64,000 nucleotides of DNA, from positions 7,130,001-7,194,000 of the forward strand of contig OX597833.1 in assembly GCA_951406725.2 (NCBI GenBank), read 5' to 3'. Of the stretch, positions 279-60,359 are shown piece after piece. The notes under the pieces were generated by a model. The model was given only the letters and a program-made list of their open reading frames with translations, was not told the DNA's origin and did no database searches. Numbering within the stretch: position 1 is the stretch's first letter; the number at the start of each line of letters is the position of its first letter. The translations under genes and the position numbers were made by a program. The DNA comes from Octopus vulgaris (Eukaryota).

Positions 279-1238
279 GCTTGACAGCCCTTCACGTCCG
301 TATTTTATTGTTGAAGTAACCATGAGCCGGGAGGAGAGGGTCATTCTTTCCCGGGTTCGTTAAAGGACCTGAGCCCATTTAATTTGGAAAAAAATATAAT
401 AATTTTTTAAAATTTAATAAAATTTTCTAACAGAGTGTGCAACAAAGAAAAACGAAAAGTAAAAGAAAAATAAAGATAAGGAGAAAGAAGGAGTAGGAGG
501 AGCCCTTCCTTTGTTTCGTTATTACAAACATAGGGTTTGTCGCTTTAATTCAAATTCTGGGAAGGGCGAAGGGTGAAAACAGCGGCAAAATAAACAGCGC
601 CACCATCGTCGCAACAGCAACAACAACAGCAGCAACAACAATGCGTCCAGCTGCAAGTGTAACATCTTCACTACGCCGCAATCACCATTAGTAACATCTT
701 CAGATGCATGCTAATGTAACGGTTTAAACGACTGCCAGACTCATCCCCTAGTAGCGCCCCCATCATCACATCCCACCCCGCCCTTCATCAAAAGCAGGTT
801 TTTGCTACATCAGTGTGCACGACCGTGACCATCACCATCAACAAGGCAACGTCAGTCGCCAAACTCTCACGCAGGGGCGGGTGGAGCATTCGTTTTCAAA
901 TAATGATCCTTTCAGCTAAAAGCACAAAAGTTACATATTACGACCTGACTTGTTCGCTCTCTGTTAACAGAAGAAGAAAAAAAAATAAAGAATAAAGAAT
1001 AAAGAATTATCATTTCCATGTGCATGAACAGAGAAAACAAGAGGGAAAAAGTGGCGGGTTACCCTGGGCCCTCAACTCCTGGTGGTGTTGCAAAGAGTAA
1101 TGTCATGACATATGGAGTGTCCCGGGCATTTTAAAACTTGGCGGAGCCCGTTTCTTTCCAAATGTAACCACAATCGACTTCTTCAAGAAACTTCTAGTTT
1201 GGGCCAGATCTTCCGGTAAAGACAGGCAGAAAAAAATG

Positions 1239-1886
1239 AGAGAGAGAGAGAGAGAAATTGACCACAGCACAGGACTGCGCGAAGAGCTCAGTATTCTGTG
1301 AATACCGATGCGTAGATGTTGAGAGAAGCTGCAAAATCTGCCGAGACAACTGGACATTGAGCAGATGCTGCCGATGATTGCCAGTCACGTTTTCCTCACA
1401 ACTCATTTCTTTGGCAGAGCTTGTAATCCTGGCTTAAACAAAGACCAATATTGAGAACTCGGCATCGGAGCCACCTAATATGTATGGTATTGTATCAATG
1501 TTATACATCGTTGTCTCACTGTGATATAATAGACTGTAAGACGGAGGGAAGAGGGGTACCATACATGTGTAAGTATATATATATATATATATATATACTT
1601 ACAGTCTTACAGTCTATTATATCACAGTGAGACAACGATGTATAACATTGATACAATACCATACATATTAGGTGGTTCCGATGCCGAGTTCTCAATATTG
1701 GTCTTTGTTTAAGCCAGGATTACAAGCTCTGCCAAAGAAATGAGTTGTGAGGAAAACGTGACTGGCAATCATCGGCAGCATCTGCTCAATGTCCAGTTGT
1801 CTCGGCAGATTTTGCAGCTTCTCTCAACATCTACGCATCGGTATTCACAGAATACTGAGCTCTTCGCGCAGGCCCGTGCCGTGGTC

Positions 1887-1917
<31 letters not shown>
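1239..1917. repeat. ~300-bp inverted repeat centred on (TA)n
   Basis: 1239-1542 is the reverse complement of 1604-1917 with few substitutions. The same peptide (MSCEENVTGNHRQ...) appears on both strands in the ORF track. Confidence 0.9.
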
Positions 1918-1969
<52 letters not shown>

Positions 1970-2054
1970 TTCGAGACAAAACCACTATTTTGCAAAACAA
2001 ACAAGGAAAGACTTAATCAATACATAAAAAATTTTAATATAAAGAAATAAACCG

Positions 2055-2098
2055 CCACTACAATTGTTTCATGCCTTCAAATGACATTCGTCAGCTGG
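2055..2098 (-). ncRNA. Minimal type-I hammerhead ribozyme motif (inverted copy)
   Basis: Minus strand: ccag CUGACGA augUC-auuugaa-ggcau GAAA caauug UA gugg. Stem III is the palindrome CAAUUG; stem I has one mismatch next to the core. Confidence 0.75.
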
Positions 2099-2170
2099 AT
2101 TTTCGATCTCCTAATCTGTTTTAATTTAATTTAGACTTCATAAATTAAAACAGATTAGGAGATCGAAAAT

Positions 2171-2213
2171 CCACCTGACGAATGTCATTGAAGACATGAA
2201 ACGATTGTAGTGG
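2171..2213 (+). ncRNA. Minimal type-I hammerhead ribozyme motif
   Basis: ccac CUGACGA augUC-auugaa-gacau GAAA cgauug UA gugg. Stem I is ccac/gugg, stem II is 5 bp, and the GUA cleavage triplet ends at 2209. Confidence 0.85.
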
Positions 2214-2393
2214 CGGTTTATTTCTTTATATTAAAAATTTTTATGTATTGATTAAGTCTTTCCTTGTTTGTTTTGCAAAATAGTGGTTTTGTCTCGAATT
2301 AATATTATATAATATTTTACTATAAAATTGGATTTAATCCTAAATCTGATTTTTTCCCTGTAAATTTGGATTTATTCCCTAATATATTATTAT

Positions 2394-2711: not shown

Positions 2712-3188
2712 ATAAATTAATAAATAAATAAAACATATGCATATATACATACATATATGTACGTACCTACATCTACATGTATATATACATGCATATATGG
2801 GTACAGGGCATAAAAAAACTGTTGAACACAATGAGAAACGAAAACATAAACACAAAACCAAGGAAATGGACATTTTTCTTAAACAACGAAAAAATAGAGT
2901 ACAGGACATACAAAACAAAGAAAATTCCCCTTCTTCAGTCGCCTTAGTTTCATCTACTCCACGTTTCGAAGGTAGAGTGTTATTTGTGTTATTTGTCCTG
3001 TACTCTATTTTTTTCGTTGTTTAAGAAAAATGCCCATTTCCTTGGTTTTGTGTTTATGTTTTCGTTTCTCATTGTGTTCGACGTTTTTTGGTGTCCTGTA
3101 CCCATATATGCATGTATATATACATGTAGAGGTAGGTACGTACATATATGTATGTATATATGCATATGTTTTATTTATTTATTAATTT
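2712..3188. repeat. ~200-bp inverted repeat element between (CA)/(TA) tracts
   Basis: Arms 2712-2915 and 2985-3188 are reverse complements. A related copy lies at ~19370-19620. Confidence 0.85.
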
Positions 3189-4169
3189 ATATATATATAT
3201 ATATATATATATACGTGTATGAATGTGTGAAGGCACATGGCTTAGAGTTTAGAGCAACAGACTCGCAGTCGAGGGATCGCGGGTTCAAATCTCAGACCGG
3301 GCGATGTGTGTGTTTATGAGCGAAACACCTAAGCCCCACACGGCTTCAGCAGAAGGTAATGGCCAACTTCTCTCACTCTTTCCTCCTGCATCTTGCAGCT
3401 CACCTGAGATGGACCGGCGTCCCGCCCAGGTGAGGAACCTATACGCCAATAAAACCGGGTTCGGCAAAAGAGACTGATAGAATAAGTACTAGGCTTAGAA
3501 AGGATAAGTCCTGGGGTCGATTTGCTCGACTAAAGGTGATGCTCCAGCATGGCCGCAGTCAAATGACTGAAACAAGTAAAAGAATAAAAGAATATAAAAA
3601 CACAGATACGTAAATACATATACCATCATCGCCGCCGCCACCTCCAGCTCTGATTACCTGCCATCACAATCACTATCACCATCCCATCCCCCTAACCACC
3701 ACCACCATCTCCACACCTCCCTATGTTCCTACCAGTTCTCAATTCTGAGACCAATTCTCCACTCTAAATAGCTTCAACACACACACACACACACACGCAA
3801 ACGTTGCAGAATTTCTCTAAAGGCTATGCACGATGGTTCATACAAGAGCGTCTACCTTCAGTTTTGCTGGTGTATGTAATTTATACACACATATGTGTGT
3901 GCTTATATACACATGTATGTAGACAAATAAACAGAAACGCAGAAACAGGCGCGCGCGCACACACACACACACAAACAGATAGAGACAAACAGACAGACAT
4001 ATACCCGTGCGATATTATGTTGCTCCTGTCTGAACTTAAACCCGTTAAATCATTGTTGAAGGTTGTGTCTTTTTTTTTTAAGTCACAACCTTAACATAAG
4101 GGTACAGCTACCCAACCAACATGAAACAGCATAGCAGGGAAACCTAATACATAAACACAAAGGTATATG

Positions 4170-6330
4170 GTACAAAATTAATCTTCTCTGCAATTAATCT
4201 TGAAATTCTAACCGAGGCTTCCGCGCTTCTGGACTGGCGATCCCTGATGACGTTGTCCTCAGTTGACGAACTATGGTCGTCCCTCAAAGCATATGCAATC
4301 TGGTTGACTGACCAAGCAGTTCCCGTTGGGCTTCCCAAGAAGAAGAAACACAAGCCCTTGGTGACGAAGAAGGTTAAACGAGAACTTCGACTCAGAGATA
4401 TTGCTTGGGCTGAATTAAAAAATCTGGATTCAACTGCAGCTTTTGAGGTGTACAAAACTCAACGAGACCGAGCCGTGAAAATTGAAAAGGAAGAACGCTT
4501 CAGATATGAATACAGAATCGCGGCAAACGCCAGTCGCAATCCAAAAACCTTCTTTGCCCATGTCCAACGGAATTCCCGCTTGAACAAACAAATTGCAACG
4601 TTGGTAGACTCAGCAGGCGTATCGATTGAGGACCCTTATCAACAGAGTCAGTTATTTGCCGAGGCTTTTTCAACTATTTTCAAACAAGATGATGGTCGTG
4701 AACCCCCTCCATTTGATAGATCGGTACCTCCAATGCTTAGATTGGTCATCACGCGGGACGAAGTCGAACGCGTTATTCAAGGCCTCGATGTCAACAAGGG
4801 TCACGGCCCTGACGGCATACACCCACGGGTTATCAAAGCGTTGGCTCCGGTCATCTGCGAGCCTTTAACACGTCTATTCAATATGTCATTGGCGACGGGT
4901 GTTATACCTGCGGACTGGAGAACAGTGATAATCTGCCCAATTTTCAAGAAAGGGAGCCGCGAAGACCCGCTTAACTACCAACCGGTTTCCCTGACTTCAA
5001 TAATCAGCAAGATGTTCGAAACCATCCTTAAGAAAAGTATGATGCTCCACCTCCAAAACACAGCCTCTATCTCTGATTCCCAACATGGCTTCGTGCCGAA
5101 GAGATCATGCTTGATCAACTTACTGGTAATGGAAGAATTGGTGACGCGCATCCTCGATGATGGTGATGCTGTTGACATCGTTTTATTGGACTTTGCCAAA
5201 GCTTTTGACTCGGTAAACCACCGCCTATTACTTGTCAAGCTTCAAGCATATAGCTTCCACCCGGATATTGTACGATGGGTTGGTGCCTTCCTCTCAGATC
5301 GCTCCTTCCAAGTCCAAGTTAATGGTTCGCAGTCCGACGTCTCCAGTGCGACCAGTGGCGTGCCTCAAGGTTCAGTGCTTGGGCCCTTATTGTTCTTAGT
5401 CTTCATAAATGACTTGCCCGACGACCTCGCGCAACACACCCTTCTATTTGCCGATGATGTCAAACTGGTCGCTCCTCGCGGTGATATAGAGGATTTTCGT
5501 CGATGCCTCCACCAAGTTTGGAGATGGTCTAACGAATGGGACCTGTGTCTGAACGTGTCAAAGTGCTGTCATCTGCCTGTTGGCTCTTCTCCTGCAACTC
5601 AACTTGATTTCGAGCCGGGTCGTCTGCTGCTGGAGAGGACCGACCAGGTAAAGGACCTGGGTATCTTATTGGATTCCTCCTTTTCGCCTTCGGCCCAGTG
5701 CGTCCATGCTGCCAACAAAGCACGCGGAGTTCTGTTTTTGATTCGACGGTCATTCGGAATGCTCACAGCAGCCATATTCCTACCGCTCTATGTCACGCTG
5801 GTGAGACCCATATTGGAGTACGGGATTCAAGCCTCTTCTCCTTATCTCCTCAAAGACATACAGCATCTCGAAAGAGTCCAGAAGCTGGCTACCCGCATGG
5901 TTCTTGGTCTCAAGCATTTGTCTTATGAAGAAAGGCTAAAGACGCTCGACCTTTATTCTCTCGAAAAACCATGACGCCGTGGTGATCTCATTCTTGCTCA
6001 CAACATCATAAGCGGAAAGTGTAACCTCTCGAAAGAGCTGTTCTTCACTCCTGCTCCAGAGCGTCGGCTGCAGGGTCACTTCGAAAAGCTCTATCTGCGA
6101 CGATTTCATCTCAATCGAAGGAGAGGGGCTTTCTCCGTCCGGGTTGCGGATCCGTGGAATAAGCTGCCGGACGAGATGGTGAAGATGCCGACGACCGCTC
6201 GGTTCAAAGTCTCTCTTGACCACATGTGGCCTGAAATCTTTACATGAACACCACCCTGTACATAACTCCATGTCCCCCTACATGGCCTTGCTTTTTGCTT
6301 TTTGAGCCAAAAAATTAACTAACTAACTAA
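4170..6330 (+). mobile_element. 5'-truncated CR1-clade LINE (ORF2 reverse transcriptase) with one premature stop
   Basis: ORF 4247-5974 has RT motifs GPDGI, QHGF, LDFAKAFDSV, GVPQGSVLGPLLF and FADD. After TGA 5972-5974 the frame continues RRGDLI...FSVRVADPWNKLP... to a stop at 6247. A (TAAC)n tail lies at ~6315-6330. Confidence 0.92.
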
Positions 6331-9045: not shown

Positions 9046-9143
9046 AGTAGGCACATAAATGCAAAAGTAGGTGGAAAAAAAAAGTACTCGAATACCAAAG
9101 GTAGAGTAATATCCTTTTATTAAAGCTGCAAAATTTTCACAAA

Positions 9144-9180
9144 GCTGTTACTCGGAGTTTCACGTTCCCATTTCATCAGA
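9144..9180 (-). ncRNA. Hammerhead motif with stem I disrupted
   Basis: Minus strand: CUGAUGA a aug-ggaa-cgu GAAA cuc-c-gag UA acagc, followed by AAUAAA (9116-9121). Confidence 0.65.
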
Positions 9181-9224
9181 ATACTAAATTACAATCGTGA
9201 TTTTAATTCAGTATCCATCACAAT

Positions 9225-9260
9225 TGCCTGACGAATGGGAACACGAAACTCTGAGTTGCA
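9225..9260 (+). ncRNA. Hammerhead motif (inverted partner of 9144-9180)
   Basis: ugc CUGACGA aug-ggaa-cac GAAA cuc-u-gag UU gca. Confidence 0.65.
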
Positions 9261-9287
9261 TGAAAATTTTGCAGCTCTATTGAAAGT

Positions 9288-40572: not shown

Positions 40573-40620
<48 letters not shown>

Positions 40621-40702
40621 TCCCGGGTTGATACGGGGTTAACCACAGTAAGTAAGGTACTCAATACATAGCAGAGTAAAATTAATTTATTATATAGAAG
40701 GA

Positions 40703-40750
40703 GCTTCTACAGGACTAGTACTGTTTCATTCAAGAGAAATCTTCAGGAAA
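40703..40750 (-). ncRNA. Type-I hammerhead motif, sense to MBD4 intron 1
   Basis: Minus strand: uuc CUGAAGA uuuc-ucuu-gaau GAAA cag-uacuaguc-cug UA gaagc. Confidence 0.7.
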
Positions 40751-41031
40751 GATTTCTCTTGAATGAAACAGTACTAGTCCTGTAGAAGCTCCTTCTATAT
40801 AATAAATATATATATATATATATATACCAATTGATTTGAGAACATAATCTTTTGTGGAGAATGGCGATTTGACGTCTATATCTAGCATGTTGACTGTCCA
40901 CTTTTCGTGTTCAGTCCTTAATTGGTATATATAAATATTTTAATCTTCGGATTCTTTTTTAATATGCTAGACCACTGGTTTTAATTGACTAATATCAATT
41001 TCTACCCTTAATTAATTTTATATATATATAA

Positions 41032-41082
41032 AGCTTCCTGAAGATTTCTCTTGAATGAAACAGTTCTAGTCCTGTAGAAGCT
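41032..41082 (+). ncRNA. Type-I hammerhead motif
   Basis: agcuuc CUGAAGA uuuc-ucuu-gaau GAAA cag-uucuaguc-cug UA gaagcu. Stem I is 6 bp, stem III is 3 bp, the GUA triplet ends at 41076, and AAUAAA follows downstream. Confidence 0.8.
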
Positions 41083-41165
41083 CCTTCTATATAATAAATT
41101 AATTTTACTCTGCTATGTATTGAGTACCTTATTTACTGTGGTTAACCCCGAATCAACCCGGGACC

Positions 41166-41204
<39 letters not shown>

Positions 41205-56924: not shown

Positions 56925-57550
56925 TTATTATTATTATTATTGGTTGGCATCCTTTCTGTCTCGGGAGACAATGGAGTTGCGCATAAAATAGTCCAGTCCG
57001 GCTTTTACATTTCATGTCCTGATACATTTCCTGCTGTGGCTGTGTAGTCCTATCCTGGACAAACACTCCCTCTGGCAGGTACCGCAAATGTAGCGAAGAC
57101 TGTTCCTGGCTGGTTGTAATGTCATAGTTTCTTGTTGACGTCTCTTCCTTTCTTTCCATTTCTCCTCTCTCTCTCTGTCACTCCTTTGTATTCCCTCTTT
57201 TACTGTACGTCACCATTCTCCACGGTTGCCGGCAATTGCCTCCCAACCGCTAATATTGATGTTGCAGGCCTTCATGTCCCTTTTGCAAACATCCTTGTAA
57301 CGTAAGATCGGTCTACCCACAGACCTAGTACCCCTAGCAAGCTCTCCGTAGAGTATGTCCTTGGGGATTCTGCCATCTTGCTTACAGCTAACATGCCCAA
57401 ACCATCTCATACGTCTTTGTGTGAGGAGTGCAAACATGCTTGGTATTCCTGCTTGCCTGAGGACATCTTTGTTAGGGATATGATTCTGCCAAGAGCGTCG
57501 CCTAAACATCTTTCACCTGCGCTGCCTCCGAAAAATCCTCCGCATCAAAT
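56925..57550 (-). mobile_element. RTE-clade LINE 3' fragment
   Basis: WQNHIPNKDVLRQAGIPSMFALLTQRRMRWFGHV...DGRIPKDILYGEL..G.RSVGRP.LRYKDVCKRDMK, with a (TAA)n tail at ~56925-56940. Confidence 0.85.
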
Positions 57551-57560
57551 GGCAGAATCA

Positions 57561-57602
<42 letters not shown>

Positions 57603-57644
57603 CACCATATCACAATTCTATTCCTCTTCCATTTCTCTTTTCAG

Positions 57645-57765
57645 GAGTATTTTCCGAGTGTGACACTGAAGACCACCAGGAGTACTGGGCCAAGAGAAAT
57701 GTGTTTCTTATTTATGAGATGGGTCTATTCACTTCTTGTGTCCACCTCCTTCACTTAGAAATGGA
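57645..57765 (+). CDS. STRIP1: STRIP1/FAM40-like exon 5
   Basis: GVFSECDTEDHQEYWAKRNVFLIYEMGLFTSCVHLLHLEM, donor gtaagt. Confidence 0.92.
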
Positions 57766-57986
57766 GTAAGTCTACCTTAGCCACTGTTGTTCTTGTTCTT
57801 GTTTAGACTCCCAACTCAGCCCACAGTCCACTACATCTACAACCAGCTCATATTTCTTTCCTTTCATTTAAAGGGTTGGGTACAATTTGATGAAGATTTG
57901 ACAGCTGGCTGCTATTTCTTGCAGGTTGAGTGACTGCATAGAAGCTGTATCGTATGCATAAATAGTTATATATATATATATATATA

Positions 57987-59323
57987 GTTATGAAATGAAA
58001 AAAGGGGGTCGAATTAATTAATTATTAATAAATTCGCCCAAGCAGTATTCGGTATGTAAAGACCATTTACGGTATATTTGAAGTATTAATTTATAAAAAT
58101 ATGGTAAAGTAAAAGAATTCACTTTACCACACACCAAACTTTTCAGAAATAGCAGCCAAAAATTTGGCTATTTCTTCAACTGCAAATAAAAGTCTCCAGA
58201 CAATGCATACTCAGAAAAATAACTCACATAGGAATAAGGGAAAAACAATGAAAGATCACATCCATATACGATACCCGAGGACAGTCTGTTTCTGGATTTG
58301 TGGGTAAAACGCCACTTTTCCTTCATCAGCTCAGAGATTTCTTCTGATTTAGATTTGAAAATACTAAGAATCAAACATACCCGTCCGATATCTGTAACAT
58401 CGGACAAACCATGCCAGACACCCAGTACTAGCGAATCCAAAAATACGAATGAGATCTATTATTCTCCCTGTCCACCCACGTGAGTCATAGAGCATTCCAT
58501 TTCTACAGAGGTAAAAACTGCAGTTCAAATTCTTGGAGAGAAAGTTTTATATTGTTATGAAATGAAAAAAGGGGGTCGAATTAATTAATTATTAATAAAT
58601 TCGCCCAAGCAGTATTCGGTATGTAAAGACCATTTACGGTATATTTGAAGTATTAATTTATAAAAATATGGTAAAGTAAAAGAATTCACTTTACCACACA
58701 CCGAACTTTTCAGAAATAGCAGCCAAAAATTTGGCTATTTCTTCAACTGCAAATAAAAGTCTCCAGACAATGCATACTCAGAAAAATAACTCACATAGGA
58801 ATAAGGAAAAACAATGAAAGATCACATCCATATACGATACCCGAGGACAGTCTGTTTCTGGATTTGTGGGTAAAACGCCACTTTTCCTTCATCAGCTCAG
58901 AGATTTCTTCTGATTTATGACTCACGTGGGCGGACAGGGAGAATAATAGATCTCATTCGTATTTTTGGATTCGCTAGTACTGGGTGTCTGGCATGGTTTG
59001 TCCGATGTTACAGATATCGGACGGGTATGTTTGATTCTTAGTATTTTCAAATCTAAATCAGAAGAAATCTCTGAGCTGATGAAGGAAAAGTGGCGTTTTA
59101 CCCACAAATCCAGAAACAGACTGTCCTCGGGTATCGTATATGGATGTGATCTTTCATTGTTTTCCCTTATTCCTATGTGAGTTATTTTTCTGAGTATGCA
59201 TTGTCTGGAGACTTTTATTTGCAGTTGAAGAAATAGCCAAATTTTTGGCTGCTATTTCTGAAAAGTTCGGTGTGTGGTAAAGTGAATTCTTTTACTTTTA
59301 CCATATTTTTATAAATTAATACT
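57987..59323. mobile_element. Hammerhead-bearing element: 567-bp unit, partial tandem copy and inverted copy, inside (TA)n
   Basis: Unit 57987-58553, direct partial copy 58554-58917, inverted copy 58917-59323. Hammerheads at 58275-58334(-), 58841-58900(-) and 59071-59130(+). Confidence 0.85.
59071..59130 (+). ncRNA. Type-I hammerhead motif, sense to STRIP intron 5
   Basis: cugag CUGAUGA a gga-aaa-gugg-cguuuuac-ccac-aaa-ucc a GAAA cag-a-cug UC cucgg. The canonical GUC triplet ends at 59125. Confidence 0.8.
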
Positions 59324-59612
59324 TTATATATATATATATATATAGCTATATATACATGAAAATATGAATACTAATAAAATAATATTCAGCAAGAATAAAG
59401 CCCCATTTAGGTTGAATTAGAAATATATAAAGCAGGTGTGCATGAAGTATGATCATTGCTAGAAATAGCAGCCAGCAAGTTTATGGCACTATGTAGAGCT
59501 TCACTGAATATTTACAGGCAGAGATATGTGCAGGTGGTGAATATAGGAAAATTCTGTCATACCTCTACGGAGACCGTTAGAGGAATAAAGGACAGCTCAT
59601 AGCGCCATAAAC

Positions 59613-59649
<37 letters not shown>

Positions 59650-60290
59650 ATATATAGGAACAACATTTTGTATTCAGACTTGAAACCATATCACTGATGG
59701 ATTTAAATGAATATCTTACACCTCTTTGTTCAGTAAAACCTTTCCTTCCCTTCAACTCCCGTCTCTCCTCACCACCTCACCATCTTCAACTCTTTTCAAT
59801 CTTTTTCTTTCTCCCTCCCTCAGCCACCTTCTCTCTCCTACTACTGGCTCTTTATGTATGAAGTGTACCTTGTTTTGTGTTCCCCATCAGTTACAGCCAA
59901 TTTCTCAAATATATGGGATGCAAAACTTTTTTTTTATTATTAATTTCCTCCCATCAATTTTACCCCGAAGAACGACTCTAATTAAAATGTTGGCTATTCC
60001 TCTCCTGATGGCAATGCTACTTTTCACTTTCTCTCAATTGTTTCAAATAATATAAGTCATACTAAACCATACCAGCTTCAATCTCCTTTGATTTTCTTTT
60101 ACATTATACACGAATATCTATATGAAGCAGTATGGTATAGCTTTGATAAGGAGTAGAATGATATAAAATTTCTTTATATGTTTGTATATTATATATATGT
60201 ATACTTACCTGTGTTATTTATCTTTATATTAATACATTTTTGTTTATATATATATTGTATTATTGATGTTGTTGTTGTTTTCTTTTGCAG

Positions 60291-60359
60291 TAACAAAGCT
60301 GTGGCCACGGCTGCTCAAAGGAAACCTTGTCTGTCTATTGCTGATTGTAAAGAGCTCAG
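60291..60359 (+). CDS. STRIP1: STRIP1/FAM40-like exon 6
   Basis: DNKAVATAAQRKPCLSIADCKELR, matching the STRIP motif A.RKP..S.AD...LR. Phase 2-2. Confidence 0.92.

What the first reader, a model, noticed from the sequence alone, without database searches (positions are those of the whole stretch)
57987..59323. Best example: very young tandem-plus-inverted ribozyme element with three GUC hammerheads in STRIP intron 5
Seen: a 567-bp unit, an adjacent 364-bp direct copy and a ~407-bp inverted copy, differing by only a few bases and bracketed by (TA)n. The two minus-strand hammerheads are 566 nt apart, so double cleavage would release a unit-length RNA. Stem III (cag-a-cug) has a 1-nt loop, which suggests dimeric folding of the tandem pair. 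Stem II is long with an A-rich internal loop, and there is no meaningful ORF. Established: this layout matches Penelope pseudo-LTR insertions and retrozyme monomers that can circularise. Inference: a recently active non-autonomous element that may produce a ~566-nt, possibly circular, RNA. The sense copy would be sequestered in ~400 bp of dsRNA in the host intron.
Basis: partly seen in the sequence, partly recalled or inferred. Interest (0 to 1): 0.8.

Follow-up and report, generated by a model that had tools for sequence, protein, structure and literature searches.

The report
Retrozyme copied from an RNA loop
This is a young copy of an abundant, protein-free jumping repeat with a predicted self-cutting RNA; the family's RNA assembles as a closed 567-letter loop in three public samples, and the shape of the insertion suggests that a Penelope-type enzyme likely copied it from such a loop, a known kind of element whose proposed spreading route can be tested here.

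Summary
The layout is real: a 567-bp unit, a 364-bp tandem copy and a 409-bp inverted copy, each with a type I hammerhead, inside a 22-bp T(TA)10G direct repeat in the fifth intron of a STRIP-like gene. The unit belongs to a very high-copy family. New evidence: in 3 of 4 RNA-like runs laid (two studies) it assembles as one 597-nt contig, that is 567 nt plus a 30-nt terminal repeat, opened at three different points. None of 4 DNA or unlabelled runs lists such a contig. That RNA is 567 nt and does not match the 566-nt piece this locus would release, so the locus is probably a daughter copy, not the source. Contigs cannot tell a circle from a linear RNA longer than one unit. Cleavage is untested; the core has an A-A mismatch at the base of helix II. 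Best reading: a non-LTR retrozyme (non-autonomous Penelope-type element), reverse-transcribed from two start sites. This scan noted the same kind of element on other DNA of this and other genomes. New member of a known kind.

The parts
57966..57987 (+). left copy of a 22-bp T(TA)10G direct repeat, candidate target-site duplication
57987..58553 (-). full 567-bp unit, 35% GC, no coding frame; 57987 is the inferred reverse-transcription start A, 293 nt 3' of the cut
58274..58335 (-). type I hammerhead 1 (helix I 6 bp, A-A at the base of helix II, palindromic helix III), predicted cut after 58280
58554..58917 (-). tandem partial copy, 364 bp; arm 1 totals 931 bp or 1.64 units
58840..58901 (-). type I hammerhead 2, predicted cut after 58846
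58916..58917 (.). 2-bp AT overlap where the two arms join (unit positions 58351 and 58489)
58916..59324 (+). inverted arm, 409 bp; its outer end equals unit position 58081, the inferred start B, 199 nt 3' of the cut and 94 nt from start A
59070..59131 (+). type I hammerhead 3 in host-gene sense, predicted cut after 59125, predicted fully paired to unit 1 in the pre-mRNA
59324..59345 (+). right copy of the T(TA)10G direct repeat
57646..57766 (+). fifth coding exon of the STRIP-like host gene, spliced to exon 4 in RNA contigs
60291..60359 (+). sixth coding exon of the host gene

Best explanation
This is a young genomic copy of a high-copy, non-coding 567-bp repeat with a predicted hammerhead ribozyme, whose RNA assembles as a closed loop and which was likely inserted by a borrowed Penelope-type reverse transcriptase copying a circular RNA. 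Shown: the layout, the high copy number, and the closed 567-nt RNA contig. Inferred steps: (1) a master copy elsewhere is transcribed to more than unit length on the ribozyme strand; (2) two hammerheads fold as a dimer through the palindromic helix III, probably with protein help, and release a monomer; (3) a host ligase closes it; (4) a Penelope-type endonuclease nicks both strands of a (TA)10 tract; (5) each nicked end primes cDNA at one of two unpaired AUAUA-containing sites, the first arm running 1.64 times round the loop and twice through the ligated cut site, the second 409 nt; (6) the arms join at a 2-bp overlap. This locus is probably a passive daughter, and its host-sense ribozyme is predicted to be blocked.
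For: Closed cycle: a 597-nt contig (567 + 30-nt terminal repeat) in X1, X2 (study P1) and X6 (P4), opened at 58142, 58409 and 58061, depth 76.6, 163.1 and 58.6, with 2, 2 and 4 differences from unit 1. These runs cover the exon (68, 63.8, 50.4) inside long contigs, X2 and X6 show the exon 4-5 splice, and intron bins outside repeats are 0, so they behave as RNA. The low-depth DNA run X13 and the exon-less run X9 break at 58543/57999 and carry other variants. High copy: flank depth 29.6, 49.2, 5.4 against 1,255 to 339,427 in unit bins of X3, X5, X19 (summed contig depth, no copy number). The ribozyme strand folds as a circle at z -9.0 (566-nt piece) and -6.6 (unit 1) against -3.3 for the antisense strand, 40 shuffles each. 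Of 39 substitutions listed break a predicted pair against 17 expected, P 0.002. Partial tandem plus 5' inverted copy, two different ends and (TA)n targets are Penelope-type hallmarks (PMC8557442, passages). A Penelope protein nicks and extends both strands and starts inside the RNA at two sites (PMC11167929). Both starts are predicted unpaired and are among the 10 best of 567 positions for an 8-nt match to the TA flank. Circle formation is shown for coral, mussel and axolotl retrozymes (PMC7229834).
Against: A closed contig also arises from a linear RNA longer than one unit or from tandem transcripts; contigs give no strand or ends. 1 of 4 RNA-like runs gave no cycle, and the RNA label is a guess backed only by exon and intron cover. 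The hammerhead has A opposite A at the base of helix II, no Rfam match, no recognisable loop 1-loop 2 contact, and its fold costs 6.7 kcal/mol in the circle and about 9.6 as a dimer against the free ensemble. Penelope hammerheads cleave poorly in vitro (PMC4209133); in the anole element cleavage needed protein, was dispensable for insertion, and no reads ended at the cut (PMC11167929); 8 of 9 Xenopus dimers did not cleave (10.64898/2026.07.22.740005). The priming match weakens with window size (7 and 49 of 567 at 6 nt, 41 and 41 at 10 nt), rests on one insertion and was noticed after the fact; PMC11167929 reports starts not homologous to the target. The 39 substitutions are not independent and partly come from related families. 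No autonomous partner was found, as no genome is held.
Confidence: 0.55

Rival explanations
1. Same element and same Penelope-type enzyme, but the RNA is a linear transcript longer than one unit from a partial-tandem master; the hammerhead is weak or idle and no circle is needed.
For: A linear RNA that starts and ends inside the repeat with 30 nt or more of overlap gives the same 597-nt contig (inference). Forced hammerhead folds are unfavourable. Uncut RNA was the main template for the anole element (PMC11167929). Unit 1 differs from its own tandem copy, which a tandem template could hand on.
Against: Three contigs open at three unrelated points with no listed branch at a fixed start or end. 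The two substitutions are CG to CA and fit decay after insertion. The core, GUC site and palindromic helix III are intact, and no core substitution is listed.
Confidence: 0.28
2. A truncated end (pLTR stump) of an autonomous Penelope-like element with no life of its own.
For: Short hammerhead fold-backs in opposite orientation are common Penelope debris (PMC4209133); three such stumps lie in this window.
Against: The unit joins head to tail after 567 bp with no coding sequence, and RNA closes at the same 567 nt.
Confidence: 0.06
3. An RNA-to-RNA replicating viroid-like circle that is occasionally integrated.
For: One near-uniform sequence dominates each RNA run although the genomic family is diverse; strong circular fold.
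Against: A hammerhead was found on one polarity only; the genome holds very many copies, and this one is 565 of 567 identical to the RNA of X1 and X2.
Confidence: 0.04
4. The tandem and inverted copies are an assembly artefact.
For: Three one-base homopolymer differences look like long-read errors. No read or contig across the inversion joint or the flank junctions was seen; no genome or raw reads were available.
Against: The head-to-tail junction exists in RNA contigs of two studies. The inversion is offset by 138 nt rather than an exact fold-back, ends at a different unit position, and is framed by a 22-bp direct repeat.
Confidence: 0.03

Closest known systems
Metazoan non-LTR retrozymes (Cervera and de la Pena 2020, PMC7229834; parts 1-4 of 6 read, supplement not read)
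   Same: Non-coding, low-GC unit in tandem, one type I hammerhead per unit, high copy number, abundant RNA, strongly self-paired circular fold, long target duplication; an axolotl family has a U-U mismatch at the base of helix II and still cleaves as a dimer.
   Different: 567 nt against 170-400; no recognisable loop 1-loop 2 contact; A-A rather than U-U; the hammerhead is predicted not to form freely in the circle; circle and cleavage not shown here; the inverted second arm is not described in the parts read.
Retrozymes as non-autonomous Penelope-like elements (Li, Clavereau, Pollet 2026, 10.64898/2026.07.22.740005; parts 1-3 of 5 read, supplements closed)
   Same: Meets their working definition (two consecutive units with a complete hammerhead); length lies within their 51-972 bp; about 43% of Xenopus copies are intronic.
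   Different: They sampled vertebrates, three insects and one coral, and argue from co-occurrence and pLTR similarity; here the link is read from insertion anatomy, and no partner element is identified.
Endonuclease-bearing Penelope-like elements (PMC8557442 and PMC3846280, passages; PMC11167929, parts 1-2 of 4; PMC4209133, parts 1-2 of 4)
   Same: Partial tandem with a 5' inverted copy, two ends of different length, AT-rich or (TA)n target, type I hammerhead with an extra base after A9 and a palindromic helix III.
   Different: No RT or GIY-YIG frame; the two ends differ by 94 nt rather than a 30-40 nt tail; both starts lie next to a short match to the target.

Membership tests
Non-LTR retrozyme | Short non-coding unit in head-to-tail copies, GC below 50%, no LTR | tested here: met
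   567 bp, 1.64 units, 35% GC, longest frame 109 aa without Pfam match
Non-LTR retrozyme | Type I hammerhead in each unit | tested here: met
   Core, three helices and GUC in all three copies; atypical A-A at helix II, no Rfam match
Non-LTR retrozyme | Canonical loop 1-loop 2 tertiary contact (most described invertebrate members; absent in mussel) | tested here: inconclusive
   None recognisable in the constrained fold
Non-LTR retrozyme | Dispersed, high-copy family | tested here: met
   Unit depth hundreds to about ten thousand times flank depth in 3 runs; 20 of 24 listed runs hold half of its words or more
Non-LTR retrozyme | Expressed as unit-length RNA | tested here: met
   567-nt closed contig in 3 of 4 RNA-like runs; strand unknown
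Non-LTR retrozyme | RNA covalently circular | tested here: inconclusive
   Contig cycle fits a circle or a longer linear RNA
Non-LTR retrozyme | Self-cleavage | not testable with these tools
   Only folding energies
Penelope-like element, autonomous | RT plus GIY-YIG open reading frame | tested here: not met
Penelope-mobilised insertion | Partial tandem, 5' inverted copy, unequal ends, AT-rich target | tested here: met
   pattern as in PMC8557442
Penelope-mobilised insertion | Sequence similarity to the pLTR of an autonomous partner | not testable with these tools
   No genome held
Viroid-like replicon | Ribozymes in both polarities, no genomic master | tested here: not met
   One polarity only; near-identical genomic copy

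The most novel reading that the evidence does not exclude
An abundant 567-nt circular RNA, cut by a hammerhead with an A-A mismatch at its most conserved pair, is the direct template of a Penelope-type enzyme that anneals both nicked ends of a (TA)n microsatellite to two unpaired AUAUA sites on the circle and reverse-transcribes from both at once, rolling past the ligation site. This would explain the tandem, the inversion, the unequal ends and the microsatellite preference of Penelope-type insertions in one mechanism.
Probability: 0.3. Interest if true: 0.75.

Novelty: new member of a known kind. Interest (0 to 1): 0.5.

Why it matters
The route by which animal retrozymes spread (circular RNA copied by Penelope-type enzymes) has been proposed since 2014 and is still not shown. 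This family offers a matched set: a near-parental expressed RNA that assembles as a loop, and a very young insertion that records two start sites, 1.64 turns and a target duplication. It can be taken straight into an in vitro Penelope assay with linear and circular templates. I found no paper describing a cephalopod retrozyme: searches retrozyme+cephalopod (1 paper listed), retrozyme+octopus (2 listed) and octopus+hammerhead+ribozyme (7 listed) showed none by title or abstract start; supplements and subscription journals were not searched. The kind of element is known, and no effect on the host gene is shown.

Tried and rejected
No genome is held, so copy number, other insertion ends, the empty site and the autonomous partner could not be examined. 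Rfam gave 0 matches at gathering score in the window and 4 chance matches at E<=5 in the element. A scan of metagenome contigs with an 18-nt ribozyme word gave 77 loci; the longest alignment to the unit was 36 nt, all treated as chance. No tRNA gene in 57500-59800. No holder is on record as RNA in the run list; 8 of 24 listed runs were laid. The step in DNA depth near 58080 would fit many copies ending at start B, but a related family overlaps there and summed depth is no copy count, so I do not use it. Local folding of the ribozyme alone shows no excess stability (z 0.47). RNA editing as the source of the A/G differences was rejected for 58136 (G in the other two copies and in most DNA depth) and is unlikely for 58474 (G in the inverted copy), though G is rare there in DNA runs. 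No earlier scan note matched this sequence or place. Luense et al. 2017 on dimeric Penelope hammerheads is not held and is recalled only. A promoter was not identified; the snRNA-type promoter suggested in note e1-9843625 could not be tested.

Full report
Observation. Self-comparison confirms a full unit at 57987-58553, a direct copy at 58554-58917 and an inverted copy at 58916-59324 that equals unit positions 58081-58489. The copies differ at two CG-to-CA sites, both in unit 1 (58136, 58474), and at three one-base homopolymer indels. The unit holds 13 CpGs. With no other substitution, the insertion is very young. (TA)10 lies on both sides, and the exact direct repeat is 22 bp, T(TA)10G, a candidate target-site duplication. 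The site is the fifth intron by coding exons found in the window; two exons match PF07923 below cut-off at adjoining profile positions. The name STRIP for that family is recalled. The host is labelled octopus in earlier notes on the same genome; I did not test this.

Ribozyme. Each copy has helix I of 6 pairs, the CUGAUGA core, helix II with an AAA/AAA loop, GAAA, the palindromic ACAG-A-CUGU helix III strand and GUC. A relaxed pattern found 8 hits in the window against 0.04 per shuffle. There is an unpaired A on each side of the base of helix II. An extra base after A9 is typical of Penelope hammerheads (PMC4209133, parts 1-2 of 4 read). A mismatch at this pair has precedent as U-U (PMC3088659, passages; PMC7229834); I saw no A-A case in what I read. 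No substitution at either A or in the core is listed in the read tables (thresholds 10% and 5%), though DNA cover drops over the ribozyme, so much of the family may differ there. Helix III is unstable as a hairpin (+2.1) and stable as a duplex (-6.9 kcal/mol). For the tandem pair the double hammerhead is 6 kcal/mol better than two monomers but 9.6 above the free ensemble. Cleavage is therefore plausible as a dimer, probably assisted, and unproven. Rfam does not recognise it.

Family. 20 of 24 listed runs, from 8 studies and three organism labels, hold half or more of the unit's words. In three deep DNA or unlabelled runs the flank has depth 29.6, 49.2 and 5.4 while unit bins reach 1,255 to 339,427. 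This is summed contig depth, not a copy number, but it shows a very large, diverse family. Several variants carried by much of the DNA depth (for example 58115 and a deletion at 58215) are absent from this locus.

RNA. I laid 8 runs on 57600-58553, which includes an exon and intron as controls. X1, X2 (study P1) and X6 (P4) cover the exon within contigs of 1.0-2.8 kb, X2 and X6 show the join to exon 4, and intron bins outside repeats are empty, so they behave as RNA. Each holds one 597-nt contig that runs through 58553 back to 57987 and ends in a 30-nt repeat: a 567-nt cycle, opened at 58142, 58409 and 58061. Terminal repeats of this kind are the signal used to call circular RNAs from assemblies (10.1101/2022.07.19.500677, passages). 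X9, guessed as RNA but without exon cover, and the low-depth DNA run X13 break at 58543 and 57999 and share other variants. X3, X5 and X19 list no such contig among their longest pieces (tables cut). So 3 of 4 RNA-like and 0 of 4 DNA or unlabelled runs show the cycle. X1 and X2 differ from unit 1 only at the two CG sites, where they agree with the inverted copy; X6 has two more changes, one unpaired and one keeping its pair. The expressed RNA is thus close to the parent of this insertion. It is not the 566-nt piece this locus would release, which has A at 58474 and one G fewer, unless those changes are private to the assembled animal or errors. Limits: contigs give no strand or ends, and a linear RNA longer than one unit gives the same cycle.

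Structure. As a circle the ribozyme strand folds far better than shuffles (z -9.0 and -6.6) and better than the antisense strand (-3.3). Of all 39 substitution rows inside the unit are unpaired, 9 keep and 9 break a pair, against 17 breaks expected (P 0.002); no compensatory pair was seen, and the rows are not independent. The hammerhead fold costs 6.7 kcal/mol in the circle, which would protect a circle from recutting; PMC7229834 reports the opposite prediction for most animal retrozymes.

Insertion mechanism. A partial tandem with an inverted 5' copy, unequal ends and a (TA)n target is the Penelope-type layout (PMC8557442 and PMC3846280, passages). A purified Penelope protein nicks and extends both strands and starts inside the RNA at two sites (PMC11167929). 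Read this way, arm 1 starts 293 nt 3' of the cut and copies 931 nt, passing the cut site twice; arm 2 starts 199 nt 3' of the cut and copies 409 nt; they meet at a 2-bp AT overlap. Neither end is at the cut, so a cut linear monomer cannot be the template: it was a circle or an uncut multimer. Both starts are predicted unpaired, and TATAT occurs only twice in the unit, 1 and 3 nt before the two starts. At 8 nt both rank in the top 10 of 567 positions for matching the TA flank; at 6 and 10 nt the ranks are weaker. This hints at priming by annealing, which the anole study did not see; a search for it listed 4 papers, and the passages I read in two of them do not describe it. It rests on one insertion.

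Host. In the host pre-mRNA the inverted arm is made after its complement and pairs over 413 bp, covering all 62 nt of the sense ribozyme. Intron cleavage is therefore not expected. Whether the sampled animals carry this insertion is unknown, so the spliced contigs say nothing on its effect.

Comparison and verdict. It works like, and on the testable features is, a non-LTR retrozyme (PMC7229834; 10.64898/2026.07.22.740005), longer than the first described members and with a Penelope-type ribozyme and insertion. It is not an autonomous Penelope element. Earlier notes of this scan report the same kind, with two fixed ends, on other DNA of this and other genomes; they are unchecked and not counted as support, and my two-start reading was noted before I saw them. 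One note reports a looping RNA contig for an element without a ribozyme, a caution that a cycle does not prove cleavage. Supplements of PMC7229834 (not read) and of the 2026 preprint (closed) might list cephalopod examples. Verdict: new member of a known kind, with unusually good RNA support; interest 0.5.

Noticed in passing
window 1963-2305: Fold-back between TA runs with a minimal type I hammerhead at 2175 (+), unrelated in sequence to the 567-bp unit; likely a Penelope-type stump.
   Followed up: partly
window 9114-9286: Older fold-back between CA runs with hammerhead-like cores at 9228 (+) and 9179 (-).
   Followed up: partly
window 40616-41168: Nested fold-back between TA runs with hammerheads at 41038 (+) and 40746 (-) that have a U-U mismatch at the base of helix II.
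   Followed up: partly
window 1238-1908 and 2715-3187: Long fold-backs in which my pattern found no hammerhead.
   Followed up: no
window 4148-5974: 608-aa frame resembling a LINE reverse transcriptase by eye; not scanned.
   Followed up: no
window 58061-58162, runs X1 and X2: An RNA contig (160 and 800 nt) matches this 100-nt hairpin region with 13 differences and then runs on unlike; a related expressed family that shares the region beside start B and could lead to the partner element.
   Followed up: no
window 57906-57942: A 37-nt piece of another repeat in the left flank, present in many RNA and DNA contigs.
   Followed up: no
window 58100/58385 (X2) and 58469/58518 (X19): Strand-switch joints from other copies at other positions, so the join between arms appears variable across the family.
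   Followed up: no
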